A stretch of 64,000 nt of DNA from a virus. Shown in pieces: positions 8,176 through 51,650 of the stretch. Made by a program: the position numbers and the translations under genes. The stretch is from the IMG/VR virus record IMGVR_UViG_3300048930_000192, positions 67,811 to 131,810 of that record. One strand, written 5' to 3'. Position 1 is the first letter of the stretch; each line of letters begins with the position of its first letter. The notes under the pieces were generated by a model. It did no database searches. It saw nothing but the letters and a program-made list of their open reading frames with translations, and had not been told where the DNA came from.

Positions 8176-8786
8176 GGATTTGTTCCTTTCATCTGTTTAA
8201 TTCTATCTGCCAAGCCGCCGGCAGCTTTGCGCTTTGCTTCTAGTTCTTTGCGGCGTTTCTCTTCGGCATTAGCTCTATCATCAGCCAACTTTGCACTCTT
8301 TTCTGGATCTTGAGTTGCTTTATAATGGTCTTTAGATGCTTGCCGTTCTGAATCAGTTAGTTTCTTGCCAGTAAATCTAGGCACGAAGGCAGCAGGATCA
8401 ACACTTCTATTTTCCATCTGCGCCTTAACGCGATCCATGATTCTATTATATCTACGCTTTTTGCGATTGTCAGAATCTTTCTTTGGGCCTAATCTATGCA
8501 ATTGGCGAACATTGCGTTCTAAAGTATCTTTCTTATTTTTACCTGAAGCCTCTGATATTTTGTCAGTAGTTTGAAACTTGGCGTAACTAACATTTAAAGC
8601 TTTGGCATTAGTAAGCGGCGAACTCTCTGTCTTTATGTCTTTAAGAGCGGCCAATGCTCGTTCTGCTTCTGGTCGGTCTTTATGCTTACTCATGGTAAGT
8701 GTTTGTGTGCCTACGATCTTAATCACAGCAAACAGATCGCCGCCGAGCTTTATAATTTTGTATTTAGTCGTATTTTCTTGCGCCAT
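8172..8786 (-). CDS. Basic hypothetical protein
   Basis: 204-aa K/R-rich ORF overlapping both neighbours. Confidence 0.65.
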   Translation of the reverse strand: MAQENTTKYKIIKLGGDLFAVIKIVGTQTLTMSKHKDRPEAERALAALKDIKTESSPLTNAKALNVSYAKFQTTDKISEASGKNKKDTLERNVRQLHRLGPKKDSDNRKKRRYNRIMDRVKAQMENRSVDPAAFVPRFTGKKLTDSERQASKDHYKATQDPEKSAKLADDRANAEEKRRKELEAKRKAAGGLADRIKQMKGTNP

Positions 8787-9432
8787 TAGCTTCTACCTCT
8801 TTCAAAAAACCGACATATCCAAGCAAACTGTCGTCTTTGGACTTGATCGGAAATGCTTCTATTCTAACACGATACTTTATGCCATCTGTGTTTTGAATAT
8901 AAAATATATCATGAAATTCTTCAATATTTGATATACACCGATTCCATTCACTTCTAACCTCTTCTCTGTCTGACTCTTCTATTGTATTTAGCCAACCATA
9001 ACCCAACAGTTCTTCAATTGTTCGATTAGTAAGCCGTTGGTACAGTCTATTAACAGTAGTTACATTGCCACGACTATCTGTTTCAAAATAACATATTTGC
9101 TTGCTAGAAGTTAAGATAGCCTTTTGGCGCTGTTCTAGATAGTGCATATTTTTATCTATTCTATTAACAGAATCTTTGATACTCATGCCACCGTTAGTAG
9201 AAAGTTCTTTAGATATTTCAGAAATTTGATTATTTATTTTAGGTATTTGACCAATACTATCTGATATCGAACTAAAGTACTTTTTTACTGGTATCACTAT
9301 TTTCTTACTAACATACAGATATATAGCACCAATAGCTCCGGCTCCAGCAACTATACCCACCAATGCTTGACTGATCTCATTAATGTTGGGTATACTAATT
9401 AATGCAATAATCAGACTAACGAAATGATCCAA
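8764..9432 (-). CDS. Membrane-anchored PAS-domain protein
   Basis: N-terminal TM segment and coiled coil, then FETDSRGNVTTVNR..EELLGYGWLNTI..DREEV..W..GYVG PAS/PAC pattern; non-ATG start. Confidence 0.8.
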   Translation of the reverse strand: MDHFVSLIIALISIPNINEISQALVGIVAGAGAIGAIYLYVSKKIVIPVKKYFSSISDSIGQIPKINNQISEISKELSTNGGMSIKDSVNRIDKNMHYLEQRQKAILTSSKQICYFETDSRGNVTTVNRLYQRLTNRTIEELLGYGWLNTIEESDREEVRSEWNRCISNIEEFHDIFYIQNTDGIKYRVRIEAFPIKSKDDSLLGYVGFLKEVEANGARKYD

Positions 9433-12611: not shown

Positions 12612-13086
12612 CTGTGCCGATCTTGTTGAGCTGAGTCATATAATATAAGAAAAGGTGAGCACAATAAAATGAAACCTCGTCTATTTCATTAGATGTTAGA
12701 AGACGACCAAAATCTGCAACCACAGATCTACAAATCCTATCATAAACTGATTTATATATATCACTGATAACAGTCAGTATTGGTGCACCGATATCGTATG
12801 TAACACCCAAATCGCAAATACATAAATCATTAATTTGCCGCTGAGGGGGTAGATCATAAGTTTGTAGATGCAAAGTAATATCACACCGTATGTTAGTATT
12901 ACCGATCGCCATACGAAAATGACTAATTGTTATATCTTTATTAAGATTATCAATAGTAGTAGGTAAACCAATAATCTGTTTGTTTGTTTGATGAATGCTG
13001 GTATCACAACTGTTCTTTGTTATTGTAATGTTAGATAATTGATCGATACCGACGCAATAATTGATAAAGTTATCGTTTGGTATCAT
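12589..13086 (-). CDS. Hypothetical protein
   Basis: ATGA-coupled ORF. Confidence 0.6.
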   Translation of the reverse strand: MIPNDNFINYCVGIDQLSNITITKNSCDTSIHQTNKQIIGLPTTIDNLNKDITISHFRMAIGNTNIRCDITLHLQTYDLPPQRQINDLCICDLGVTYDIGAPILTVISDIYKSVYDRICRSVVADFGRLLTSNEIDEVSFYCAHLFLYYMTQLNKIGTGGIHERI

Positions 13087-13559
13087 ATATTATGTTCCAC
13101 TGTTCTAGGAAACTGAACTAAACTTAAGGTAATCAAATAATCAACAAGAAAGCAGACAAGACTGATATTATCAGGTTCTATTACAGATATCTTAGAAAGA
13201 CCACTACTAATTGTATTATTAATCGAATGTAATAACCACATTATGTCGTCGTGTATCGTAAATGAATCATTATAGAGTTCAGTATATTCTTCTTTTGGGG
13301 TTGATGAAGCCTTATTATTGATGACCTTCGCACAAAGATTGATTTTGTAATAATATCTATTGTTGATAGTATTATACCCAGCAATAAACTCTTTAAGTAT
13401 TATTTTAATAGTATATTGGCTATTAGAAAATAATGCAATAACCTCTGATTCTTGCATGGTATTAGTATCTGAGTTTGGTTGATTGGATATGTAAAATTGA
13501 TATCTGATAGTATCTTTAATACATTGTGGTGTAAAGAAGTTATTATTTAATGCAGTCAT
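13083..13559 (-). CDS. Hypothetical protein
   Basis: First ORF after the leftward promoter at 13626. Confidence 0.65.
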   Translation of the reverse strand: MTALNNNFFTPQCIKDTIRYQFYISNQPNSDTNTMQESEVIALFSNSQYTIKIILKEFIAGYNTINNRYYYKINLCAKVINNKASSTPKEEYTELYNDSFTIHDDIMWLLHSINNTISSGLSKISVIEPDNISLVCFLVDYLITLSLVQFPRTVEHNI

Positions 13560-13597
13560 ATATGAAACTCACGATATAAGAACACTAATGTTGACGT

Positions 13598-13626
13598 ATT
13601 ATACACGATTGGTATGATATGATCAA
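13598..13626 (-). promoter_or_regulatory. Leftward sigma70-type early promoter
   Basis: TTGATC-17-TATAAT with CC at positions 15-16. Confidence 0.8.
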
Positions 13627-13697
13627 AAATCTGAGTTTCGGTGCGTAAGATAATAGTCGCCTATAGTAGATCTATAGTGATTACCGTGACCACCGTT

Positions 13698-13910
13698 ATT
13701 TTAACTCTGGATAGTGAAAAATTGTGGCGGCCAAAAGAACGGTAACAGTACCACCACCGTACCACCACCACCGTACCACCACCACCGTACCACCACCACC
13801 GTACCACCACCACCATTTTGACTCTGGATAGTCACCATTTTAACTCTGGATAGTGAAAAATTGTGGCGGCCAAAATATCGTATTTAATCTTCAACGACCC
13901 CCACCACCCC
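13698..13910. repeat. Repeat block at the strand switch (candidate origin or genome end)
   Basis: Two copies of ATTTTAACTCTGGATAGTGAAAAATTGTGGCGGCCAAAA flanking tandem GT(ACC)n units. Confidence 0.85.
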
Positions 13911-13986
13911 TCTTTATATAGTGTCTTTTCGTATCTGAGATACTACAGTTAGTGTGTACTAACAGTCGATTTTTTCACTCCAGTGC

Positions 13987-14014
13987 TTGACTCTACGCGC
14001 GACGCGCATACACT
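13987..14014 (+). promoter_or_regulatory. First rightward early promoter (GG/CC-free)
   Basis: TTGACT-16-TACACT. Confidence 0.7.
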
Positions 14015-14084
14015 CTATGTGTCTACTACGTGTCGCGCAACTTCGTGAGACACGAAAACAATAGTAGACTTGTGAGAATCTGAC

Positions 14085-14749
14085 ATGACTTCTACGCTTC
14101 AGATCGTTGCATCGTCGCACGTCGTTCGTTTTCGTGATCAAGAGCAGCGACTGTTTTCGTACAGTCTGCACGATTCGTCTGTCAGTCTCACGCGCAACGC
14201 GCTTGCGTCGTACGCGCTCGATCGTGAAGACTCTCTCGCGCACGTGCATACGATCGATCGCGACGAATTCGAGCGCGCAAATACGCGCGTGATTCGTGAC
14301 AGTGTGTACGAAAACTACGCGCAGAATCGTCACTCGATCGAGCGCGTACGACGCAAACGTTCGCGCGTGCGACGATCGATTCGTGCTTCACTACGTTCTC
14401 GACTGTCGCGCGCTTCACTGTCAACGTCGATAACGTCAAGCGCGACAAGTGTGTGCGAATCGTGCGAAAAGTTGAATTCGACGAAGCGTACAATGCAAGC
14501 GCAGAGCACGATTTGCAGATCGCGCAAGATTGCAGACTGCAATCGATCGAGATCATGCAAATGATCGAAGATGTGCAGAAATTGCGCGCAAAGATCGCAT
14601 CGTGCATCACTCTCTTTCACAAAATGAAAGAGAGCGCAGACAAAGAGACGCGCGACAAAGCGTTTGCTGCTCTCAACGCTGCGAAAAAGCGCAAGATTCT
14701 GCTCGCAGAGATGCTCGAATCGTTGAATTGCGCAGATCTTTTCGACTAA
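14085..14749 (+). CDS. GG/CC-free early gene, apparently frameshifted (ORFs 14085-14564 and 14453-14749), unknown function
   Basis: Lies between promoter and terminator; no Gly, Pro or Trp; helical C-terminal segment. Confidence 0.65.
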
Positions 14750-14769
14750 GATCGAAAACAGAACAAAAC

Positions 14770-14803
14770 ACGAACGAAGCGCTAACGTGCTTCGTTCGTC
14801 TTT
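14770..14803 (+). terminator. Intrinsic terminator built without GG/CC
   Basis: ACGAACGAAGC-GCTAACGT-GCTTCGTTCGT followed by CTTT. Confidence 0.75.
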
Positions 14804-15033
14804 CTCACAAAGCGCCGATTGCCAGTGCTTGTTGCGCTGGCTTTCGTCGTTTTTCGGTCGGATCATAACATCGCGTTCGCCATTGTATGCATGGTGGTAT
14901 CAAAAGTCAAGTAAAAAATAAAATAATATTATACGGTGGTGGCGGACGCGAGGTTAGTAACGGCTAACTAACAACCATCTGGGATACCGTATGTTAGTGA
15001 ATACTAATGTGTGTCAAAATCAAGTCTACGTGC

Positions 15034-15062
15034 TTGACATTCGCACGTTTACGCGCTATACT
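15034..15062 (+). promoter_or_regulatory. Early promoter (GG/CC-free)
   Basis: TTGACA-17-TATACT inside a 140-bp GG/CC-free stretch. Confidence 0.85.
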
Positions 15063-15141
15063 TATGTGTCACACGAGAGAATATTAGACGTGAGTGTTTC
15101 ACGAAAAGTAAACTCTCAAAACAAGTTTGGAGTATCTGACA

Positions 15142-15723
15142 ATGACGACCGCCAATGCTCTGCCGTTTGCCCCCGTCACCCCCGGGGCGCCCAAGACCGC
15201 CAAGCCCGCTGCCCCGAGTGGCGTGACCTACGGGGACAAGATCAATGCTGCCTTCGCGCTTGAGATTGCCCGCACCGTGGGCTTCGACCCGTTCGACGTC
15301 GCCGCTCGCCCGACCTACTTCACCCGCCCGCAGATGTTCCGCATCGCGCTCGAAAACGGGGCCAAGTGGTTTCTCGACTACTACCGCAAGCAAAAGAGTG
15401 GCAAGGGCCTGGGCAAGCTGATCGCGCAGACGGGGCAAGACTGGTACACCCCCGAATTGTTCAGCGACCCCAAGTTCTACTCCCGCTTTGGCGTCAAGCT
15501 GGGCAAGCCGAATCATGTGAGCAACAAGCACACCAAGAATGGCGTCTGCGTCGACCCGACCCGCCCGTGCCTGCCCAACGGGACCAAATGCTACGACGCC
15601 GTCGTGCTCTGGGAATCGCTTGACCGCGTGCGTGAAAAGATGGGCGAAGTTCACTACCTCGCCATGTGCGACCGCAAGCCGTTCGATGCCGCGACCGACG
15701 AAGAAACCGAAGATTCCGAGTAA
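15142..15723 (+). CDS. Early protein, paralog family A copy 1
   Basis: GGAG RBS; motifs shared with ORFs at 17157 and 42287. Confidence 0.85.
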   Translation: MTTANALPFAPVTPGAPKTAKPAAPSGVTYGDKINAAFALEIARTVGFDPFDVAARPTYFTRPQMFRIALENGAKWFLDYYRKQKSGKGLGKLIAQTGQDWYTPELFSDPKFYSRFGVKLGKPNHVSNKHTKNGVCVDPTRPCLPNGTKCYDAVVLWESLDRVREKMGEVHYLAMCDRKPFDAATDEETEDSE

Positions 15724-15754
15724 ACCCATCGTCACGACAATCTGAGATAGACCC

Positions 15755-15785
15755 AAGGGGCTGGATCAATCCAGCCCCTTGTTTC
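15755..15785 (+). terminator. Intrinsic terminator
   Basis: AAGGGGCTGGAT-CA-ATCCAGCCCCTT followed by GTTT. Confidence 0.8.
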
Positions 15786-15942
15786 GGTACATTATCCCAA
15801 ACATCGCGTCCGGCATTATAGGGGTGTGGTATGATGGTGTCAAGTGCATTAGTGAAAATTAATGTTACCGTATGGCGGACACGAGGTTAGTAAGTACTTA
15901 CTAACAGATATCTGAGATAATAAAATAAAATGCACTATACAC

Positions 15943-15971
15943 TTGACATCGACTAGGTAACATGCTATACT
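15943..15971 (+). promoter_or_regulatory. Early promoter
   Basis: TTGACA-17-TATACT, single GG at positions 14-15. Confidence 0.85.
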
Positions 15972-16010
15972 TATGTGTCGAGTGGATCATCTATCACAAA
16001 GGGGCTCAAA

Positions 16011-16358
16011 ATGAGCAATTGCATCCAGCCGCGTGGCAATTTCTGTCAGGGTGTCATCTTGGATCCTTCCATGTTCACTGGGCTCCTTGCCGTCGAAGAT
16101 GCCGAGGGCAACAAAATCTTCCGATCCACTCGTGATGGCTGGGTCCTCAAGATGGGCAGAATAACCACATGGCGTGGGTTTCGTTGCTTTCTCTGGAACC
16201 ATGTGCAACCGTTCGTCAATCAGCCGCGCGTCAAGATCCCAACCCTGATCGCCGACGAGGCTGATGAGTTTGCCGAGGCATTCACTGCCACCGTGCACCT
16301 ATTTCCACCTGGGACCAAGAGCGCAGACGTGGCTGATTGGACCAAGATTTTCCCCTGA
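16011..16358 (+). CDS. Hypothetical early protein
   Basis: AAGGGG RBS, directly downstream of promoter. Confidence 0.7.
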   Translation: MSNCIQPRGNFCQGVILDPSMFTGLLAVEDAEGNKIFRSTRDGWVLKMGRITTWRGFRCFLWNHVQPFVNQPRVKIPTLIADEADEFAEAFTATVHLFPPGTKSADVADWTKIFP

Positions 16359-16375
16359 CCAGACCAAATGGAGAT

Positions 16376-16612
16376 ATGACCATGACCGATAACCTCAAGA
16401 CCGTCACCCGGAACCTTCTGATGTCTGCCCTCATGTGTGATGAGGGTGTGACCAAAGAAGTGTTCGACCGCCTTCTGGAACTCGCCGAAGAGGTGTTTGG
16501 CACGCCGGGTGCTCATGTGCTCGCGATGTACGTGGATGCCACCGATGATTGTTTCTATGTCGCGGAACACAAGGTGTCTGCCTTCATGATCGACGTGGCT
16601 AATCTGATCTGA
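16376..16612 (+). CDS. Hypothetical early protein
   Basis: GGAG RBS; leader sequence duplicated before 16633. Confidence 0.7.
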   Translation: MTMTDNLKTVTRNLLMSALMCDEGVTKEVFDRLLELAEEVFGTPGAHVLAMYVDATDDCFYVAEHKVSAFMIDVANLI

Positions 16613-16632
16613 TCACCAGACCCAATGGAGAT

Positions 16633-16824
16633 ATGACCATGACCAAGATCATTGTGACCGTGACCGACAACGAGAACCCAGAGTGTGAGCCTGCTACCTA
16701 TGAGGCGCTCGTGGAAACCGGACTTTCTCCTGAAACCCAGGAAATGATCGTTCGTGGGATCCTTTTCGCCCATTCCTGGGCAGATTCTGCTGGCATCGAC
16801 TATACCTGGTCCTACGACGGATAA
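16633..16824 (+). CDS. Hypothetical early protein
   Basis: GGAG RBS, followed by terminator. Confidence 0.7.
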   Translation: MTMTKIIVTVTDNENPECEPATYEALVETGLSPETQEMIVRGILFAHSWADSAGIDYTWSYDG

Positions 16825-16840
16825 CCCGACCTTTCAAATG

Positions 16841-16897
16841 CGCCGATAGAACCGTGAATGGTGTGTTGCCATTCACGGTTCTATCGGCGTGTTTTTA
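16841..16897 (+). terminator. Long-stem terminator
   Basis: CGCCGATAGAACCGTGAATGG / CCATTCACGGTTCTATCGGCG followed by TGTTTTT. Confidence 0.8.
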
Positions 16898-17156
16898 GGC
16901 TCATCCGTAAACCTCGTGTCCGGCATTATAGTATATAGGTAGTGTAAAGTCAAGTATGGTATGTAAAATTGATGTTACCATGATGGCGGACGCGATGTTA
17001 GTACTTACTAACTAACCTGTATCTGAGATAATCACAAAAAGAGCGATATACACTTGACGTCTTCTAGCCTACGCGCTATCATTCACTGTCAACTGCAACT
17101 GTCGCGCGTCGCGTCGATCGCAAGTTGAAAATTACCCACGAAAGGGGTAAAGTATC

Positions 17157-17834
17157 ATGACCGAGAATAACAACGCCGTTGCCACCACTCCTGCCACCGC
17201 CGCCAAGAAGGGCCGCAAGCCCAAGAATGCCGCTGCCTTGCCTGATGTGCCGCCTGCCCCTGTCGCGCCTGGCGCCGCGACGCCCGAGACCCCGATCAGC
17301 AAGCCCGCCAACGTGTCGCGTCGTGACCGTACCAATGCGGGATTCGTGCTCGACCTGTGCATGATCACTGGCACTGACCCGACCGACATCGCCAATCGCC
17401 CGCAGTATATGACCCGCCCGCAGATGGAAGCCGTTGCCATCTCGAATCGTGAGCCGTGGTACGTGAATATGTGGAACAAGCAGAAGACCACCAAGCACCG
17501 CGACAAGACCATCGCCAAGACGCATGCCAACTGGTTCGACGAAGCCATGCTCGTCGATGGCAAGAAGTTCAGCCGATTCGGGATCGTGTGTGGCAAGCCG
17601 GGCCACGTGAGTTATGCCACTGTTCATGCCGGGGTGATGGTCGACCCCAAGGGCCCGACCCTGCCCGACGGGACCAAGCAGTACGACATCACCCAACTCT
17701 GGGATTCTCTCGACCGAGTGATCGCTGCCTACCCCGCGGGGACCTATGCCGAACTGAGCCAGCGCAAGCCCGTTGTCGCTGATGACTCGACCGATGAGTC
17801 TGACACCGAGACCAACGACGAGACCGCCGACTAA
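17157..17834 (+). CDS. Early protein, paralog family A copy 2
   Basis: NAGFVLDL..RPQYMTRPQM..FSRFGI..GKP..GVMVDP..LPDGTKQYD..LWDSLDRV. Confidence 0.85.
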   Translation: MTENNNAVATTPATAAKKGRKPKNAAALPDVPPAPVAPGAATPETPISKPANVSRRDRTNAGFVLDLCMITGTDPTDIANRPQYMTRPQMEAVAISNREPWYVNMWNKQKTTKHRDKTIAKTHANWFDEAMLVDGKKFSRFGIVCGKPGHVSYATVHAGVMVDPKGPTLPDGTKQYDITQLWDSLDRVIAAYPAGTYAELSQRKPVVADDSTDESDTETNDETAD

Positions 17835-17864
17835 ACCCGACAACCCGACATCCTGAATCACCAC

Positions 17865-17893
17865 GAGGGGCTGGATCGATCCAGCCCCTCTTT
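17865..17893 (+). terminator. Intrinsic terminator (near copy of 15755)
   Basis: GAGGGGCTGGAT-CG-ATCCAGCCCCTC followed by TTT. Confidence 0.8.
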
Positions 17894-18102
17894 CGGGTAC
17901 ATATACTAACCTCGTGTCCGGCATTATAGTATATAGGTAGTGTAAAGTCAAGTATGGTATGTAAAATTGATGTTACCATGATGGCGGACACGAGGTCTAT
18001 GGTTACCGATAAAATAATCGTGTGTGTAGACTTGACATCATGTTGCCATAACGCTAGAATAACTGTCGCGCATTGTCTCTCACATACACTGGAGATCGCC
18101 GC

Positions 18103-18324
18103 ATGGGCTACCGTGATCCTCGCCGTTTCGTGATTGCCGTCACCAACGTCAATGGCCGCAAGGACTACTATGCGGGTAGCCGTGATGGCCAACCCACATG
18201 GTCGAATGACCTGATCGACGCCTTCCAGTTTCGTGGCGAAACGGAACTGGATGCTGCAATCCTGCTCGCCAAGAAGCTTGGTGCCAGGGTCTATCAGCGT
18301 GGCGTGATGGTCGAGTGTTGGTAA
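18103..18324 (+). CDS. Hypothetical early protein
   Basis: GGAG RBS after promoter 18032. Confidence 0.7.
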   Translation: MGYRDPRRFVIAVTNVNGRKDYYAGSRDGQPTWSNDLIDAFQFRGETELDAAILLAKKLGARVYQRGVMVECW

Positions 18325-18366
18325 GCAATTTCATCCATCTCACGCAACCACTCAAGGAGTATCATC

Positions 18367-18591
18367 ATGGCTACCGTAAAGTCGGACCTGACCGCCGCCC
18401 GTAGGTACCTGATCGAGGCCTATAAGGCTATCAAAGATGCCAGAACCCACTGTGATGGTGTCGTGGATGTTGAAGGCATCCACTACCATGATATCACCAA
18501 AATCATGGACCAAGTCGATACCGTCGCTCGGATTTGCAAGGTCGAGCTGGATCGTCTGGATAAGGGTATTTTGACGTCCAAGGAATCCTGA
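18367..18591 (+). CDS. Hypothetical early protein
   Basis: AAGGAG RBS. Confidence 0.7.
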   Translation: MATVKSDLTAARRYLIEAYKAIKDARTHCDGVVDVEGIHYHDITKIMDQVDTVARICKVELDRLDKGILTSKES

Positions 18592-19053
18592 TATTTTCCG
18601 CTGTTTTCCGTAATTGTCGTCAAAAATCACGAAAAAACTGCATTTGGACAGCCAGGATGCAGTTTATTTTGATGGATTTACGCTCCAAAAAAACTGCATT
18701 TGGACAGCCAGGATGCAGTTTTTCACGAAAACACGTGTTTTTTGCATTTACCCCTGCTCCGCTACAGGCCAGCCCTTACCAAACATCAAAAAACTCGCGT
18801 CCTTTTGGAAATACGTGGCAATAGGTCTATAATTTTACCTCGTGTTCGGCATGTTATGTGTATGGTGTATGATAGTCAAGTATGGTCTAAAATATTAATG
18901 TTACCAATTGATGTATAATGGTAGCGCCAATGGTGGCGAACACGAGGTATGCCATTGGTATAATATATTCGTGTGCGTACACTTGACTATGATATGCCAA
19001 TCGTCTAAAATAACTGTCGCGCATTCTCTCACACGATCATTGGAGTATCCACA

Positions 19054-31980: not shown

Positions 31981-32643
31981 TTAAACCACGTCGTATAACG
32001 GTACTACTCTAGACTTTATGCGCTTATCGGCTATAACACAGTAGTCTGGCACTATCTCTGAACCAATATACCTGCGACCAGTATCTAATGCTGCTATGGC
32101 AGTAGTACCAGAACCCATGAATGGGTCATAAACTATATCATTTGGTTTGGTATAATTCAAAATGCACCGTTTAGGCATAGCAACTGCCACGCCCTGTTGG
32201 AATCCATCATATCGTTCTGTACCATCTTCAAATACATCTGGTTTAAATGACTTCTCGAAATATTGTTTAGGCTTAGACTTCTTCTTGGCGAAGGTCAAAA
32301 CATTGCTATAATTCAACCGATATAAATTAACACCCATAGATTTTATTAGAATCTTGTGCGATATTAGTTTATAGTCCAATTCGCTCATCATGGTATTAAT
32401 CATTGTTGACTTAGATATGATCCGAGAATCAAACTTTCGGTCAGTCAGGCACATTGTTATAATGCCAGTTGAAGGATTGCACAACTCGAATATGGAGATT
32501 AAAAAGTCTTTATATGCCTTTTCATCGTTGGGGTCATAACCCAACTCGTCGTATTCGGGTGGCCCGCAAAAGATATAGTCATAAGATATATTAGATTTCA
32601 AGGTATCGCGGCAATCTTCACATTTAATAACATTCTCTACCAT
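31981..32643 (-). CDS. Amino-DNA methyltransferase (m6A/m4C, beta-type motif order)
   Basis: DYIFCGPPEY (motif IV variant) precedes VYDPFMGSGTT (motif I). Confidence 0.85.
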   Translation of the reverse strand: MVENVIKCEDCRDTLKSNISYDYIFCGPPEYDELGYDPNDEKAYKDFLISIFELCNPSTGIITMCLTDRKFDSRIISKSTMINTMMSELDYKLISHKILIKSMGVNLYRLNYSNVLTFAKKKSKPKQYFEKSFKPDVFEDGTERYDGFQQGVAVAMPKRCILNYTKPNDIVYDPFMGSGTTAIAALDTGRRYIGSEIVPDYCVIADKRIKSRVVPLYDVV

Positions 32644-50465: not shown

Positions 50466-50669
50466 TTTTGGAGATGTATTAAATGCCAGATTTAGAGCGC
50501 CTCACAGATGACCTTATGCTAGACCTAAGCAAAGGCGACGAATCAAAACACCAATATTACATTGGCTATATTACAGGTAAAACTACTGCAAGAAAAGAAA
50601 TTGCATTTGCCGCTATTGTTCTTGGCGTAATTATCTGTGTGTTTGGCTTCTTTGCTTCTTGAATATAAA

Positions 50670-51650
50670 ATGAGCCACATCAATCAAATCTCAAATTCAT
50701 GGCGCCGTCTAGTTGGCACCAATAAAGTGCTTCTGATGGTTTCTGGTGGCGTAGACAGCATGGCTTTAATGGAAACCGCATTACGAGCCAATGTTGACTT
50801 TGAGGTGTTGCATATTACCCATGATATGCGACCTGCAAGCGAAACTGATAATGACCGAAAGATCGTGGAAGAATATTGTGCCGACCACGATGTTCCGTTT
50901 CATAACATTGCCGTTACAAGTGAATCCAAGACTGAAACAGATTACCGCAATCTTCGAGTAAAGGTAATCTGTGATCTTACCAATGAACTTGGCATCAAAT
51001 ATGTTGCCACTGGGCACCATTCAGATGACCAGATTGAAACCATTTTGATGAAGATTTGTCGAGGTTGCGGCCTTGAAGGCCTGAGTGGCATTGCAGAGAC
51101 CTCAGAATATCCGACCGTTGATCCGCAATTTACATATGTTCGGCCACTACTGAATACTCCAAAATCTGTTCTTATTGATATTTGCCTTGAAAATAATGTG
51201 CGATGGCACGAAGATGTTACCAACGCAGATGCCGATATTACTCGGAACGCGATTAGAAACAAGGTTGTGCCACTACTCAAGCAATTGTACCCTGGCATTA
51301 ACTCTGCATTTAATAACATGGCTGACAATTCTCGAATGGCACTTGACCATATTACCAATGAAGTATCTGAATATATTGCCTCGCAATTAGACGAATATGG
51401 CTCTGGCTGCTTTGACCGCAAACAGCTAAAGGCCAAGAGCGATTGCTTCATTCGGTATTGGCTAATTGGTATTCATAGTCATAATAGCTATAATGGTATG
51501 GACAAATTGAAGAAAACGTATACTATGGAATTCATCAAGTGTATTAAATCAACCAAAGTAAGGAACACTGTAATGAGATATGGTAATTGCGAAATGTTCT
51601 TTGCCAGAGATAAGATTTACGTTATTGGTCAACCGCATAATCAAAAATAA
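50670..51650 (+). CDS. tilS: tRNA(Ile)-lysidine synthetase
   Basis: VSGGVDSMAL PP-loop, TGHHSDDQIETILM..RG.GL.GL.GI, VRPLL, W.ED.TN..RNAIR. Confidence 0.9.
   Translation: MSHINQISNSWRRLVGTNKVLLMVSGGVDSMALMETALRANVDFEVLHITHDMRPASETDNDRKIVEEYCADHDVPFHNIAVTSESKTETDYRNLRVKVICDLTNELGIKYVATGHHSDDQIETILMKICRGCGLEGLSGIAETSEYPTVDPQFTYVRPLLNTPKSVLIDICLENNVRWHEDVTNADADITRNAIRNKVVPLLKQLYPGINSAFNNMADNSRMALDHITNEVSEYIASQLDEYGSGCFDRKQLKAKSDCFIRYWLIGIHSHNSYNGMDKLKKTYTMEFIKCIKSTKVRNTVMRYGNCEMFFARDKIYVIGQPHNQK

What the first reader, a model, noticed from the sequence alone, without database searches (positions are those of the whole stretch)
13981..14815. A whole transcription unit written without a single GG or CC dinucleotide
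Seen: reading base by base, 835 bp contain no GG and no CC (only one CC back to 13911) although the DNA is about half G+C and full of CG and GC. Roughly a hundred would be expected by chance (rough estimate). The promoter, the leader (no GGAG; GAGA instead), the coding sequence (hence no Gly, Pro or Trp) and the terminator all comply, and GG/CC resumes right after the terminator. It is the first rightward unit after the repeat block, and the next genes are CC-rich. Inference, preferred: virion DNA is bulkily modified at GG/CC, and this bootstrap gene must be readable by host RNA polymerase before anything else; its product may license transcription of, or remove marks from, the rest. Alternative: a PAM-free gene invisible to NGG (Cas9) or CC (type I-F) CRISPR systems or GG/CC-containing restriction sites, for example an anti-defence gene. 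I know of no description of such an element.
Basis: partly seen in the sequence, partly recalled or inferred. Interest (0 to 1): 0.95.

Follow-up and report, generated by a model that had tools for sequence, protein, structure and literature searches.

The report
GG/CC-free early gene in T4-like phage
One early gene of an uncultured T4-like phage, from promoter to terminator, is written without a single GG or CC step and its relatives keep it that way, which points to a still unidentified factor that reads this two-letter word on DNA.

Summary
Window 13981-14815 (835 bp, 51% G+C) has no GG or CC where about 110 are expected. It is the longest such gap in the 131,810-bp contig; the next is 142 bp, at the adjacent promoter and leader.

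It is not chance, an assembly chimera or hypermutation. An independent metagenome contig (L003, 77% identical over the unit) has the same architecture and 9 GG/CC, against about 50 expected from its 188 substitutions. Five protein relatives have 0-2 Gly+Pro+Trp where about 27 are expected. dN/dS is 0.29 at dS 0.77. Back-translating the protein with phage codon usage predicts 42-69 GG/CC; 0 are seen.

The unit encodes one roughly 220-aa protein of a tiny family with no known relatives. In this contig it is broken by a 1-nt deletion inside a 25-nt inverted repeat. The phage is a distant T4-like myovirus. GG/CC is not depleted contig-wide (ratio 1.005). No hmC or deazaguanine genes were found in the 72% of the genome held.

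My leading candidate, held weakly, is escape from host DNA surveillance that needs this word (CC or NGG PAMs). This scan has noted the same trait before, on unrelated phage DNA.

The parts
13981..14815 (.). GG/CC-free stretch (835 bp), running from 7 nt upstream of the -35 hexamer to about 10 nt past the terminator
   Evidence: 0 GG/CC against about 110 expected; longest gap in the contig.
13987..14014 (+). Sigma-70-type promoter TTGACT-16 nt-TACACT (class I: -10 followed by ctatgtgtc, no CC in the spacer)
   Evidence: Conserved in L003 as TTGACA-17-TATACT. Function is inferred from the consensus match only.
14015..14084 (+). Leader with GAGA (14074-14077) 7 nt before the ATG, in place of a GG-containing Shine-Dalgarno sequence
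   Evidence: Promoter plus leader are 86% identical to L003. In a crude call of 174 genes, 120 have GG in the 20 nt upstream, many as GGAG or AGGA.
14085..14339 (+). N-terminal coding block (85 codons, frame of the ATG at 14085)
   Evidence: aligns to residues 1-85 of relatives P0001-P0005 and L003; dN/dS 0.26.
14340..14350 (+). Frame break: 11 nt where all relatives have 12 (KRNQ). It lies in the right arm of the inverted repeat 14200-14224 / 14335-14359.
   Evidence: The arms are 25 nt and 96% complementary here but only a partial palindrome in L003. This suggests a quasipalindrome-templated mutation (inference); an assembly error is not excluded.
14351..14749 (+). C-terminal coding block (132 codons plus stop), helical-hairpin domain
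   Evidence: aligns to residues 90-221 of relatives; dN/dS 0.26. In the AlphaFold2 model of P0001, helices 140-181 and 187-213 are the only confident part.
14766..14803 (.). Hairpin (15-nt arms, 8-nt loop). It looks like a terminator on both strands: CTTTCTC follows on +, GTTTTGTTCT on -.
   Evidence: The 3' UTR/terminator is 93% identical to L003.
13698..13880 (.). Upstream repeat block: 44-nt direct repeat (13698-13741, 13837-13880), 22-nt repeats, and a tandem array ACCACCACCGTACC x4.6 (13750-13815). Very CC-rich on the + strand.
   Evidence: The related array AGACCACCATT x5 is in L003, and the block is also at the end of L006. Its role is unknown.
14882..14910 (-). Antisense consensus promoter TTGACT-17-TACAAT firing toward the hairpin
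   Evidence: It belongs to the PeSL-like terminator/promoter cassette between the early genes.
14987..15129 (+). Second-longest GG/CC-free stretch of the contig (142 bp): the next class I promoter (15034-15062, TTGACA-17-TATACT) and its leader, up to the next gene's start region
   Evidence: Its -10 and start region (TATACTtatgtgtc) resemble those of the first unit.

Best explanation
The unit is an accessory early gene of a T4-like phage that purifying selection keeps free of the DNA step GG/CC from promoter to terminator. As a result, a host surveillance activity that needs this word to engage double-stranded DNA cannot bind, silence or cut this one transcription unit.

The most concrete candidates are PAM-dependent CRISPR effectors: CC for type I-F, NGG for many type II systems. 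A short-motif nuclease is a second possibility. On this reading the roughly 220-aa product is an anti-defence or host-takeover protein whose production must not be interrupted. The rest of the genome, with about 10,000 GG/CC, relies on that product or on other means.

Shown: the absence of GG/CC; its restriction to one transcription unit; its maintenance by selection in relatives; that it acts at the nucleotide level and not only on amino acids; that the gene codes for protein; the T4-like early-region context.

Inferred: I give about 0.35 to the host-surveillance reading as a whole and about 0.25 to CRISPR PAMs specifically.
For: Selection on the nucleotide word:
- 0 GG/CC against about 110 expected.
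- L003 differs by 188 substitutions yet has 9 GG/CC. Random placement of the same substitutions gives a mean of 49.7 and a minimum of 30 in 5000 trials.
- The 23-27 best-supported substitutions listed per run for three public runs create none; random placement gives 5-6, with P(0) about 0.001. These are 36 of 216 listed differences and are not independent between runs.
- Back-translating the Gly/Pro/Trp-free protein with phage codon usage predicts 42-69 GG/CC; 0 are seen.
- The non-coding promoter plus leader and the 3' end have 0 where 12.4 and 6.9 are expected.

DNA-level reading: both strands are equally clean, and the clean zone starts 7 nt upstream of the -35 hexamer, before the transcript begins.

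Real protein gene: dN/dS 0.29, dS 0.77.

Accessory, fast-turnover setting:
- The family has 5 members among 5.8 billion clusters and 1 representative among 1.84 billion proteins.
- There is no Pfam, PHROG or PDB match.
- The CDS is 74% identical to L003 while the flanks are 86-98% identical, as with PeSL-bounded cassettes of T4-like hyperplastic regions (PMC4122927, abstract read).

Precedent for the word: CC is the type I-F PAM and is statistically depleted in targeted Pseudomonas phages (PMC12174588, abstract and impact statement read). Spacers are enriched against anti-CRISPR loci (bioRxiv 10.64898/2026.10.15.759504, abstract read), which gives a reason to clear PAMs from such a locus in particular.

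Specificity: it is not general restriction-site avoidance, since palindromes are 2-3 times enriched.
Against: - Neither the host nor its defence systems are known. The TilS-like gene gave only hits of 35% identity or less, across many phyla.
- The contig as a whole shows no GG/CC depletion (ratio 1.005). A cut anywhere else would still kill a lytic phage.
- T4-like phages are not known for stepwise DNA entry (textbook knowledge, not tested here), so the time-window logic of T5/T7 does not obviously apply.
- Known anti-CRISPR proteins are not reported to be Gly/Pro/Trp-free (recalled, not tested).
- A per-site benefit from removing one potential protospacer seems too small to explain an absolute purge.
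- TA is also depleted (0.41 and 0.46 of expectation) and CG doubled in both copies. A PAM model does not predict either.
- The gene is frame-broken in this contig, so it may be dispensable here.
- The same trait was noted by this scan in phage-plasmids of soil bacteria (unchecked notes), where one common PAM is not an obvious explanation.
Confidence: 0.35

Rival explanations
1. Own-mark model. The phage marks its DNA at GG/CC, and the mark or the marking reaction hinders host RNA polymerase. One immediate-early gene is therefore kept site-free so that it can be read first or continuously; its product may license the rest.
For: The clean zone matches a transcription unit, including its promoter. 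28 of 32 TTGACN-17-TANNNT sites to the right of 13900 carry CC at spacer positions 9-10, whereas the first three rightward promoters (13987, 15034, 15943) do not. These are two promoter classes that a CC-directed mark could distinguish. A DNA methyltransferase of unknown specificity is encoded at 31981-32643. Earlier notes of this scan proposed the same for other phages (unchecked).
Against: No thymidylate-synthase/dCMP-hydroxymethylase, TGT/DpdA, ABC-ATPase or GNAT gene is in the contig, though 28% of the genome is missing. Units 2 and 3 share the class I promoter but have normal GG/CC in their genes. The methyltransferase resembles adenine methyltransferases only weakly and below the cut-offs. 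The spacer CC may simply be part of a duplicated PeSL-type promoter.
Confidence: 0.2
2. RNA-level design. The mRNA avoids GG (RegB-type GGAG cleavage, Shine-Dalgarno-like or CsrA-type GGA sites) and also CC and UA, to give a long-lived, unregulated early message. Strand symmetry would then be a by-product or reflect antisense transcription.
For: TA is depleted to 0.41 and 0.46 in both copies, against 0.78 next door. The Shine-Dalgarno sequence is GAGA, while other genes commonly use GGAG or AGGA. GGAGG/CCTCC is 6-fold under-represented contig-wide. An antisense promoter faces the unit. RegB cleavage at GGAG in T4 is recalled knowledge; the review PMC3014915 was seen only in a search listing.
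Against: CC is as absent as GG, and no RNA reader of CC is known to me. The untranscribed promoter part is also clean, though this is only about 35 bp with roughly 4 expected. The antisense RNA should stop at the hairpin and itself contains GG/CC.
Confidence: 0.12
3. Self-immunity. The product, or another early phage factor, attacks or blocks nucleic acid at GG/CC as a host shut-off, and its own gene must be immune to keep being expressed.
For: An absolute purge fits a reader that acts at every site. Natural and engineered precedents exist for genes that lack the site of a co-expressed RNase (MazF/ACA-less mRNAs; recalled, not checked here).
Against: All other phage genes carry GG/CC at normal density and would be hit too. 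The protein shows no nuclease or DNA-binding family match. The structural model is confident only for a helical hairpin.
Confidence: 0.1
4. Mutational origin: a CC-specific cytosine deaminase, or another context-specific mutagen, erased CC/GG without selection.
For: Such footprints are known in animal viruses (recalled). A transcription-coupled process could be limited to one unit.
Against: G+C stays at 51% and CG is doubled. Substitutions against L003 are 85 transitions and 103 transversions, with no C>T/G>A excess. dN/dS of 0.29 shows an intact protein constraint. Both strands are equally clean.
Confidence: 0.03
5. Artefact: a chimeric assembly or a synthetic/spike-in sequence.
For: None beyond the oddity itself.
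Against: L003, an independent metagenome contig, has the same flanks on both sides. Logan contigs of three runs from different studies bridge both borders: X1 13896-14310 and 14761-14889; X2 13916-14755. The promoter and leader resemble those of the next unit.
Confidence: 0.01

Closest known systems
PAM depletion in phages (type I-F CC PAM in Pseudomonas aeruginosa phages, PMC12174588; motif depletion in phages of CRISPR hosts, PMC4246573)
   Same: The same two-letter word (CC and its complement) is under negative selection in phage DNA. It is a strand-symmetric, DNA-level effect.
   Different: The published effect is a modest, genome-wide statistical shift (PMC12174588: abstract and impact statement read; PMC4246573: search listing only). 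Here the contig-wide ratio is 1.005 and a single 835-bp unit has none at all, at the cost of excluding Gly, Pro and Trp from the protein.
Site-free first-entering DNA: T5 first-step-transfer region and the early-injected region of T7-like phages (PMC10644984 and PMC12455610, search listings and abstract openings only)
   Same: A small, early-expressed block with strong host-type promoters must escape host nucleases before counter-measures exist.
   Different: Those blocks lie at a fixed DNA end and avoid particular 4-8-bp sites. This one lies inside a T4-like contig with no end found, avoids a dinucleotide, and is rich in palindromic sites.
PeSL terminator/promoter cassettes of T4-like hyperplastic regions (PMC2839356, search listing; PMC4122927, abstract read)
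   Same: T4-like phage; small novel ORFs bounded by conserved hairpin-plus-early-promoter modules; flanks more conserved than the ORF.
   Different: PeSLs explain how such a gene is shuffled, not why it lacks GG/CC. No dinucleotide-free cassette is mentioned in the abstract read.
GG/CC-free early operons noted earlier by this scan in phage-plasmids and other phages (e1-3543736, e1-5969878, e1-5797348 and others)
   Same: The same trait: a 1-1.6-kb early unit without GG/CC, Gly/Pro/Trp-free proteins, conserved in relatives, reader unknown.
   Different: No sequence similarity to this unit. Those cases were tied to a DNA tip or to a predicted DNA-marking enzyme. Here the setting is a T4-like myovirus with neither found. 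The notes are AI notes and mostly unchecked.

Membership tests
PAM-depleted (CRISPR-evading) phage sequence | Depletion of the PAM word on both strands | tested here: met
   0 GG/CC in 835 bp against about 110 expected.
PAM-depleted (CRISPR-evading) phage sequence | Depletion seen across the targeted genome or its protospacers | tested here: not met
   Contig-wide observed/expected 1.005; lowest other 835-bp window 0.62.
PAM-depleted (CRISPR-evading) phage sequence | Host carries a CRISPR system with a CC or NGG PAM and spacers against this phage | not testable with these tools
   Host unknown. The TilS-like gene gave only hits of 35% identity or less, in many phyla. No spacer database is available.
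First-step-transfer / early-injected terminal region (T5, T7 type) | Lies at a fixed physical end or terminal repeat of the packaged DNA | tested here: inconclusive
   The unit is at 81.8 kb of a 131.8-kb linear contig classed as having no end repeats. The phage is T4-like. A repeat block lies upstream, but no read-level end data exist.
First-step-transfer / early-injected terminal region (T5, T7 type) | General paucity of restriction sites | tested here: not met
   Palindromic 4-mers 127 per kb against 58 next door; 6-mers 34 against 11.
PeSL-bounded cassette of a T4-like hyperplastic region | T4-like genome; ORF flanked by a conserved stem-loop plus early promoter; flanks more conserved than the ORF | tested here: met
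   Split PolB, clamp, clamp loader. Hairpin 14766-14803, then promoters 14910(-) and 15034(+). Identity to L003: CDS 74%, 3' end 93%, downstream 98%.
Anti-CRISPR / anti-defence protein families | Sequence or fold similarity to a described member | tested here: not met
   No Pfam, PHROG or PDB-sequence match. No ESM Atlas feature hit. The AlphaFold2 model has mean pLDDT 51, so no fold search was made.
Anti-CRISPR / anti-defence protein families | Inhibits a defence system | not testable with these tools
   Needs expression against defence panels.
Phages with hypermodified C or G (T4 hmC type; 7-deazaguanine type) | Encodes dCMP hydroxymethylase (thymidylate-synthase fold) or a DpdA/TGT transglycosylase | tested here: not met
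   PF00303 and PF01702: 0 matches in the contig, with the control genomes positive. The contig is about 72% complete, so absence from the phage is not shown.

The most novel reading that the evidence does not exclude
A still undescribed activity reads the bare GG/CC step on DNA. Unrelated phages, now including a T4-like myovirus with no known stepwise DNA entry and none of the DNA-marking genes looked for, have independently written one immediate-early transcription unit without that word, even giving up glycine, proline and tryptophan. The invariant CC in the spacer of 28 of 32 later promoter-like sites would then be the same word used as a switch. That would give a two-stage early programme keyed to GG/CC.
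Probability: 0.25. Interest if true: 0.9.

Novelty: new variant of a known kind. Interest (0 to 1): 0.8.

Why it matters
Motif avoidance in phages is normally a weak statistical signal for 4-8-bp sites. Here a two-letter word is banned absolutely from one complete transcription unit, selection maintains the ban, and the protein pays by losing three amino acids. That implies a strong reader of GG/CC which is not yet identified.

This case adds constraints to the earlier sightings. The trait occurs in a T4-like phage. It is not at a detectable DNA end. The contig has no hmC, deazaguanine or ABC-GNAT marking genes. The rest of the genome is not depleted.

If it is a DNA mark or an unknown nuclease, it points to a new layer of phage-host conflict. 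In either case such units could be found by a simple scan, and their products are candidates for early anti-defence proteins.

Tried and rejected
No close relatives in phage collections. Nothing was found in the INPHARED phage set by blastn or megablast. IMG/VR gave nothing with either ORF, the family alignment, the neighbouring 198-aa gene or a conserved 24-nt flank. One IMG/VR relative of the 386-aa neighbour (L006) ends inside the repeat block and so lacks the unit.

Function. No Pfam, PHROG, PDB-sequence or ESM Atlas match. AlphaFold2 on the 5-sequence alignment gave mean pLDDT 50.9, confident only for helices 140-213, so I made no fold search. No Rfam match in 13000-16000.

Chi-site idea. 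The flanking ACCACCACC / GGTGGTGG motifs are oriented toward the unit, but the TGGTGG strand bias simply follows gene orientation, the exact motif is not conserved in L003, and GCTGGTGG is absent. I dropped this idea.

Host. The TilS-like gene gave only hits of 35% identity or less, across many phyla.

Expression. No RNA holder was listed by the look-up of sequencing runs. The laid runs were contigs only and cannot show starts, ends or levels.

I find one break, a 1-nt deletion in an inverted-repeat arm.

Literature. Seven full-text searches found no description of a dinucleotide-free phage gene. Supplementary files were not consulted (closed) and could hold relevant tables in the PAM-depletion papers.
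Full report
**Observation.** The window is the last 64 kb of a 131,810-bp viral contig estimated to be about 72% complete. Between the CC at 13980-13981 and the CC at 14815-14816 there is no GG and no CC. The stretch is 51% G+C, with CG 113 and GC 83. About 109-110 GG+CC would be expected, either from base composition or from the density next door. The probability of none is about 1e-51. It is the longest GG/CC gap in the whole contig; the runners-up are 142, 139 and 125 bp, and no other dinucleotide class shows anything comparable. The contig as a whole is not depleted: observed/expected is 1.005, the median 835-bp window is 0.97 and the lowest window elsewhere is 0.62.

**Anatomy.** The clean zone coincides with one transcription unit.
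- Promoter TTGACT-16-TACACT at 13987-14014.
- A leader whose ribosome-binding sequence is GAGA, 7 nt before the ATG at 14085. Other genes commonly use GGAG or AGGA.
- The coding sequence, running to the stop at 14749.
- A hairpin at 14766-14803 that looks like a terminator on both strands.

Upstream lies a repeat block: 44-nt and 22-nt direct repeats and a tandem ACCACCACCGTACC array. This block separates leftward replication genes (split family-B polymerase, clamp, clamp loader, dUTPase) from a long run of rightward early-type genes. PolB is at most about 45% identical to that of any isolated phage, with T4-like cyanophages and a Pelagibacter phage as best hits. The phage is therefore a distant T4-like myovirus. 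The host is unknown.

**Coding status.** All six frames are fairly open because TA is scarce, so ORF lists alone are misleading. Five relatives were found among 5.8 billion protein clusters: P0001 (221 aa), P0002 (218), P0004 (218), P0005 (212) and the fragment P0003. They show a single protein of about 220 aa.

In this contig the frame changes between HSI and TQTF, where 11 nt stand in place of the 12 nt (KRNQ) found in all relatives. Contigs from other runs also carry the longer form. The break lies in the right arm of a 25-nt, 96% complementary inverted repeat (14200-14224 / 14335-14359). In L003 that repeat is only a partial palindrome. I read this as a quasipalindrome-templated mutation, which is an inference; an assembly error cannot be excluded. 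Against L003, dN/dS is 0.29 with dS 0.77, so this is a real protein gene.

The protein has no match in Pfam, PHROGs, PDB sequences or the ESM Atlas. The AlphaFold2 model has mean pLDDT 51 and is confident only for a C-terminal helical hairpin.

**Is the property selected?** Yes, on several lines of evidence.
- L003 is an independent 1,083-nt metagenome contig with the same repeats, promoter, gene, terminator and downstream sequence. Its unit differs from ours by 188 substitutions (77% identity) yet has only 9 GG/CC dinucleotides, in three clusters. Placing the same substitutions at random creates a mean of 49.7 and never fewer than 30 in 5000 trials.
- The 36 best-supported differences shown for three public runs (of 216 listed; not independent between runs) create no GG/CC. 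Random placement gives 5-6 per run, with P(0) about 0.001.
- At the protein level, Gly+Pro+Trp counts are 0 (ours), 0, 2, 0, 1 and 2 (L003), where about 27 would be normal for this phage's early genes.
- The constraint is on nucleotides, not only on amino acids. Back-translating our protein with the phage's codon usage predicts 42-69 GG/CC, and 0 are seen. The non-coding promoter plus leader and the 3' end have 0 where 12.4 and 6.9 are expected.

**What it is not.**
- Not a chimera: L003 and Logan contigs from three studies bridge both borders.
- Not hypermutation: G+C is 51%, CG is doubled, and the substitution spectrum is 85 transitions to 103 transversions.
- Not general restriction-site avoidance: the unit holds 127 palindromic 4-mers and 34 palindromic 6-mers per kb, against 58 and 11 next door. 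This is so even though the contig as a whole avoids several 6-mer palindromes.

**Context that bears on mechanism.**
1. The second-longest GG/CC gap (14987-15129) is the next promoter and leader, which resemble the first (TAYACT followed by yatgtgtc).
2. Promoters fall into two classes. The first three rightward ones (13987, 15034, 15943) have no CC in the spacer, whereas 28 of 32 TTGACN-17-TANNNT sites to the right of 13900 carry CC at spacer positions 9-10. This may be a temporal class distinction, or only the signature of duplicated PeSL-type cassettes (PMC4122927, abstract).
3. Units 2 and 3 have normal GG/CC in their coding parts.
4. Family searches of the contig for the thymidylate-synthase/dCMP-hydroxymethylase fold, TGT/DpdA, ABC ATPases and GNATs found nothing relevant. 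The only DNA-modifying candidate is a 220-aa beta-class N6_N4 methyltransferase of unknown specificity. The missing 28% of the genome limits this negative result.
5. Both copies of the unit also show TA at 0.41-0.46 of expectation, CG at about 2 times and TC/GA at 1.2-1.5 times. I cannot explain the TA depletion.

**Mechanism.** The data show strong purifying selection against a strand-symmetric two-letter word, limited to one promoter-to-terminator unit.

I commit, weakly (0.35), to escape from host DNA surveillance that needs GG/CC. PAM-dependent CRISPR effectors are the most concrete candidate (about 0.25). CC is the type I-F PAM and is known to be depleted in targeted phages (PMC12174588). 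Spacers are reported to be enriched against anti-CRISPR loci (bioRxiv 10.64898/2026.10.15.759504, abstract). An effector bound in a promoter or gene would silence it at once. Together these would explain why the transcription unit is what gets cleared.

The points against this reading are serious. The host is unknown. The rest of the genome is not depleted. T4-like phages are not known for stepwise DNA entry. Known anti-CRISPR proteins are not Gly/Pro/Trp-free (recalled). The per-site benefit seems small for an absolute purge. The TA and CG skews are unexplained. The gene is broken in this genome.

It is weakened by the missing enzymes and by the GG/CC-rich units 2 and 3. RNA-level design (0.12), self-immunity to a phage factor (0.1), mutation bias (0.03) and artefact (0.01) follow.

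**Comparison with what is known.** The closest published phenomena are these:
- PAM depletion, which is genome-wide and modest;
- site-free first-entering DNA of T5- and T7-type phages, which sits at a fixed end and avoids specific 4-8-bp sites;
- PeSL cassettes, which explain the conserved flanks but not the missing word.

Seven full-text searches found no dinucleotide-free phage gene in print. This scan has noted the same trait before on other, unrelated DNA: phage-plasmids, a 108-kb phage, and phages predicted to modify guanine. Those are AI notes, one of them later checked as 'what was seen stands'. They share no sequence with this unit.

This case widens the trait to a T4-like myovirus and removes two proposed explanations for this lineage, as far as a 72% genome allows: a position at a DNA tip, and an ABC-GNAT or deazaguanine marking system.

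**Verdict.** The trait is conserved under selection. The mechanism is unresolved. I class it as an extreme new variant of motif avoidance, with a real chance that it reveals a new kind of reader. Interest 0.8.

Noticed in passing
window 13900-64000 (promoters listed): 28 of 32 TTGACN-17-TANNNT sites carry CC at spacer positions 9-10 (consensus TTGACa-gtgatttGCCatacgtc-TAcAAT). The exceptions are 14910(-), 15034(+), 15943(+) and 33671(+). The promoter of the GG/CC-free unit has a 16-nt spacer without CC.
   Followed up: partly
window 14987-15129: The second-longest GG/CC-free stretch of the contig (142 bp) covers the next class I promoter and its leader, which resemble those of the first unit.
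   Followed up: partly
window 14200-14224 and 14335-14359: A 25-nt, 96% complementary inverted repeat inside the gene. Its right arm holds the 1-nt frame break and a cluster of differences from all relatives. In L003 the repeat is only a partial palindrome, which suggests a templated (quasipalindrome) mutation.
   Followed up: partly
window 13981-14814 and L003 199-1021: Besides GG/CC, TA is at 0.41 and 0.46 of expectation (0.78 next door), CG is about 2 times and TC/GA 1.2-1.5 times. The 258-bp TA-free run at 14489-14747 is the longest in the contig. Unexplained.
   Followed up: partly
whole contig: GGAGG/CCTCC occurs 7 times against 40 expected. GGCC is the most avoided 4-mer (0.60). The 6-mer palindromes CTGCAG, CTCGAG, AACGTT, ACGCGT and TACGTA are at 0.04-0.20 of expectation.
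   Followed up: no
window 13698-13880; L003 1-55; L006 first 150 nt: A conserved repeat block lies at the divergence point of leftward and rightward genes: a 44-nt repeat twice, a 22-nt repeat three times, and a tandem ACCACCACCGTACC array x4.6 (an 11-nt AGACCACCATT array x5 in L003). Contigs of relatives end inside it. It could be an origin, a regulatory array or a DNA end; this is undecided.
   Followed up: partly
window 14000-19000: The first 5 kb of the rightward early region has 47-62% G+C, against 39% for the contig. It holds two paralogous genes of unknown family (15127-15723 and 17157-17834).
   Followed up: no
window 50637-51650; 31981-32643(-); 8764-9432(-): The phage encodes a TilS-like PP-loop protein (tRNA lysidine synthetase N-domain, E 2e-45), a small beta-class N6_N4 DNA methyltransferase with an unusual motif IV (CGPPEY), and a PAS-domain protein. 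There are also 10 tRNA genes, NAMPT and PRPP synthetase.
   Followed up: partly
window 14882-14910(-), 15815-15843(-), 16953(-), 17951(-), 18879(-): Consensus antisense promoters sit between the first early genes and face the upstream gene's 3' hairpin. They look like PeSL-type composite terminator/promoter cassettes.
   Followed up: no
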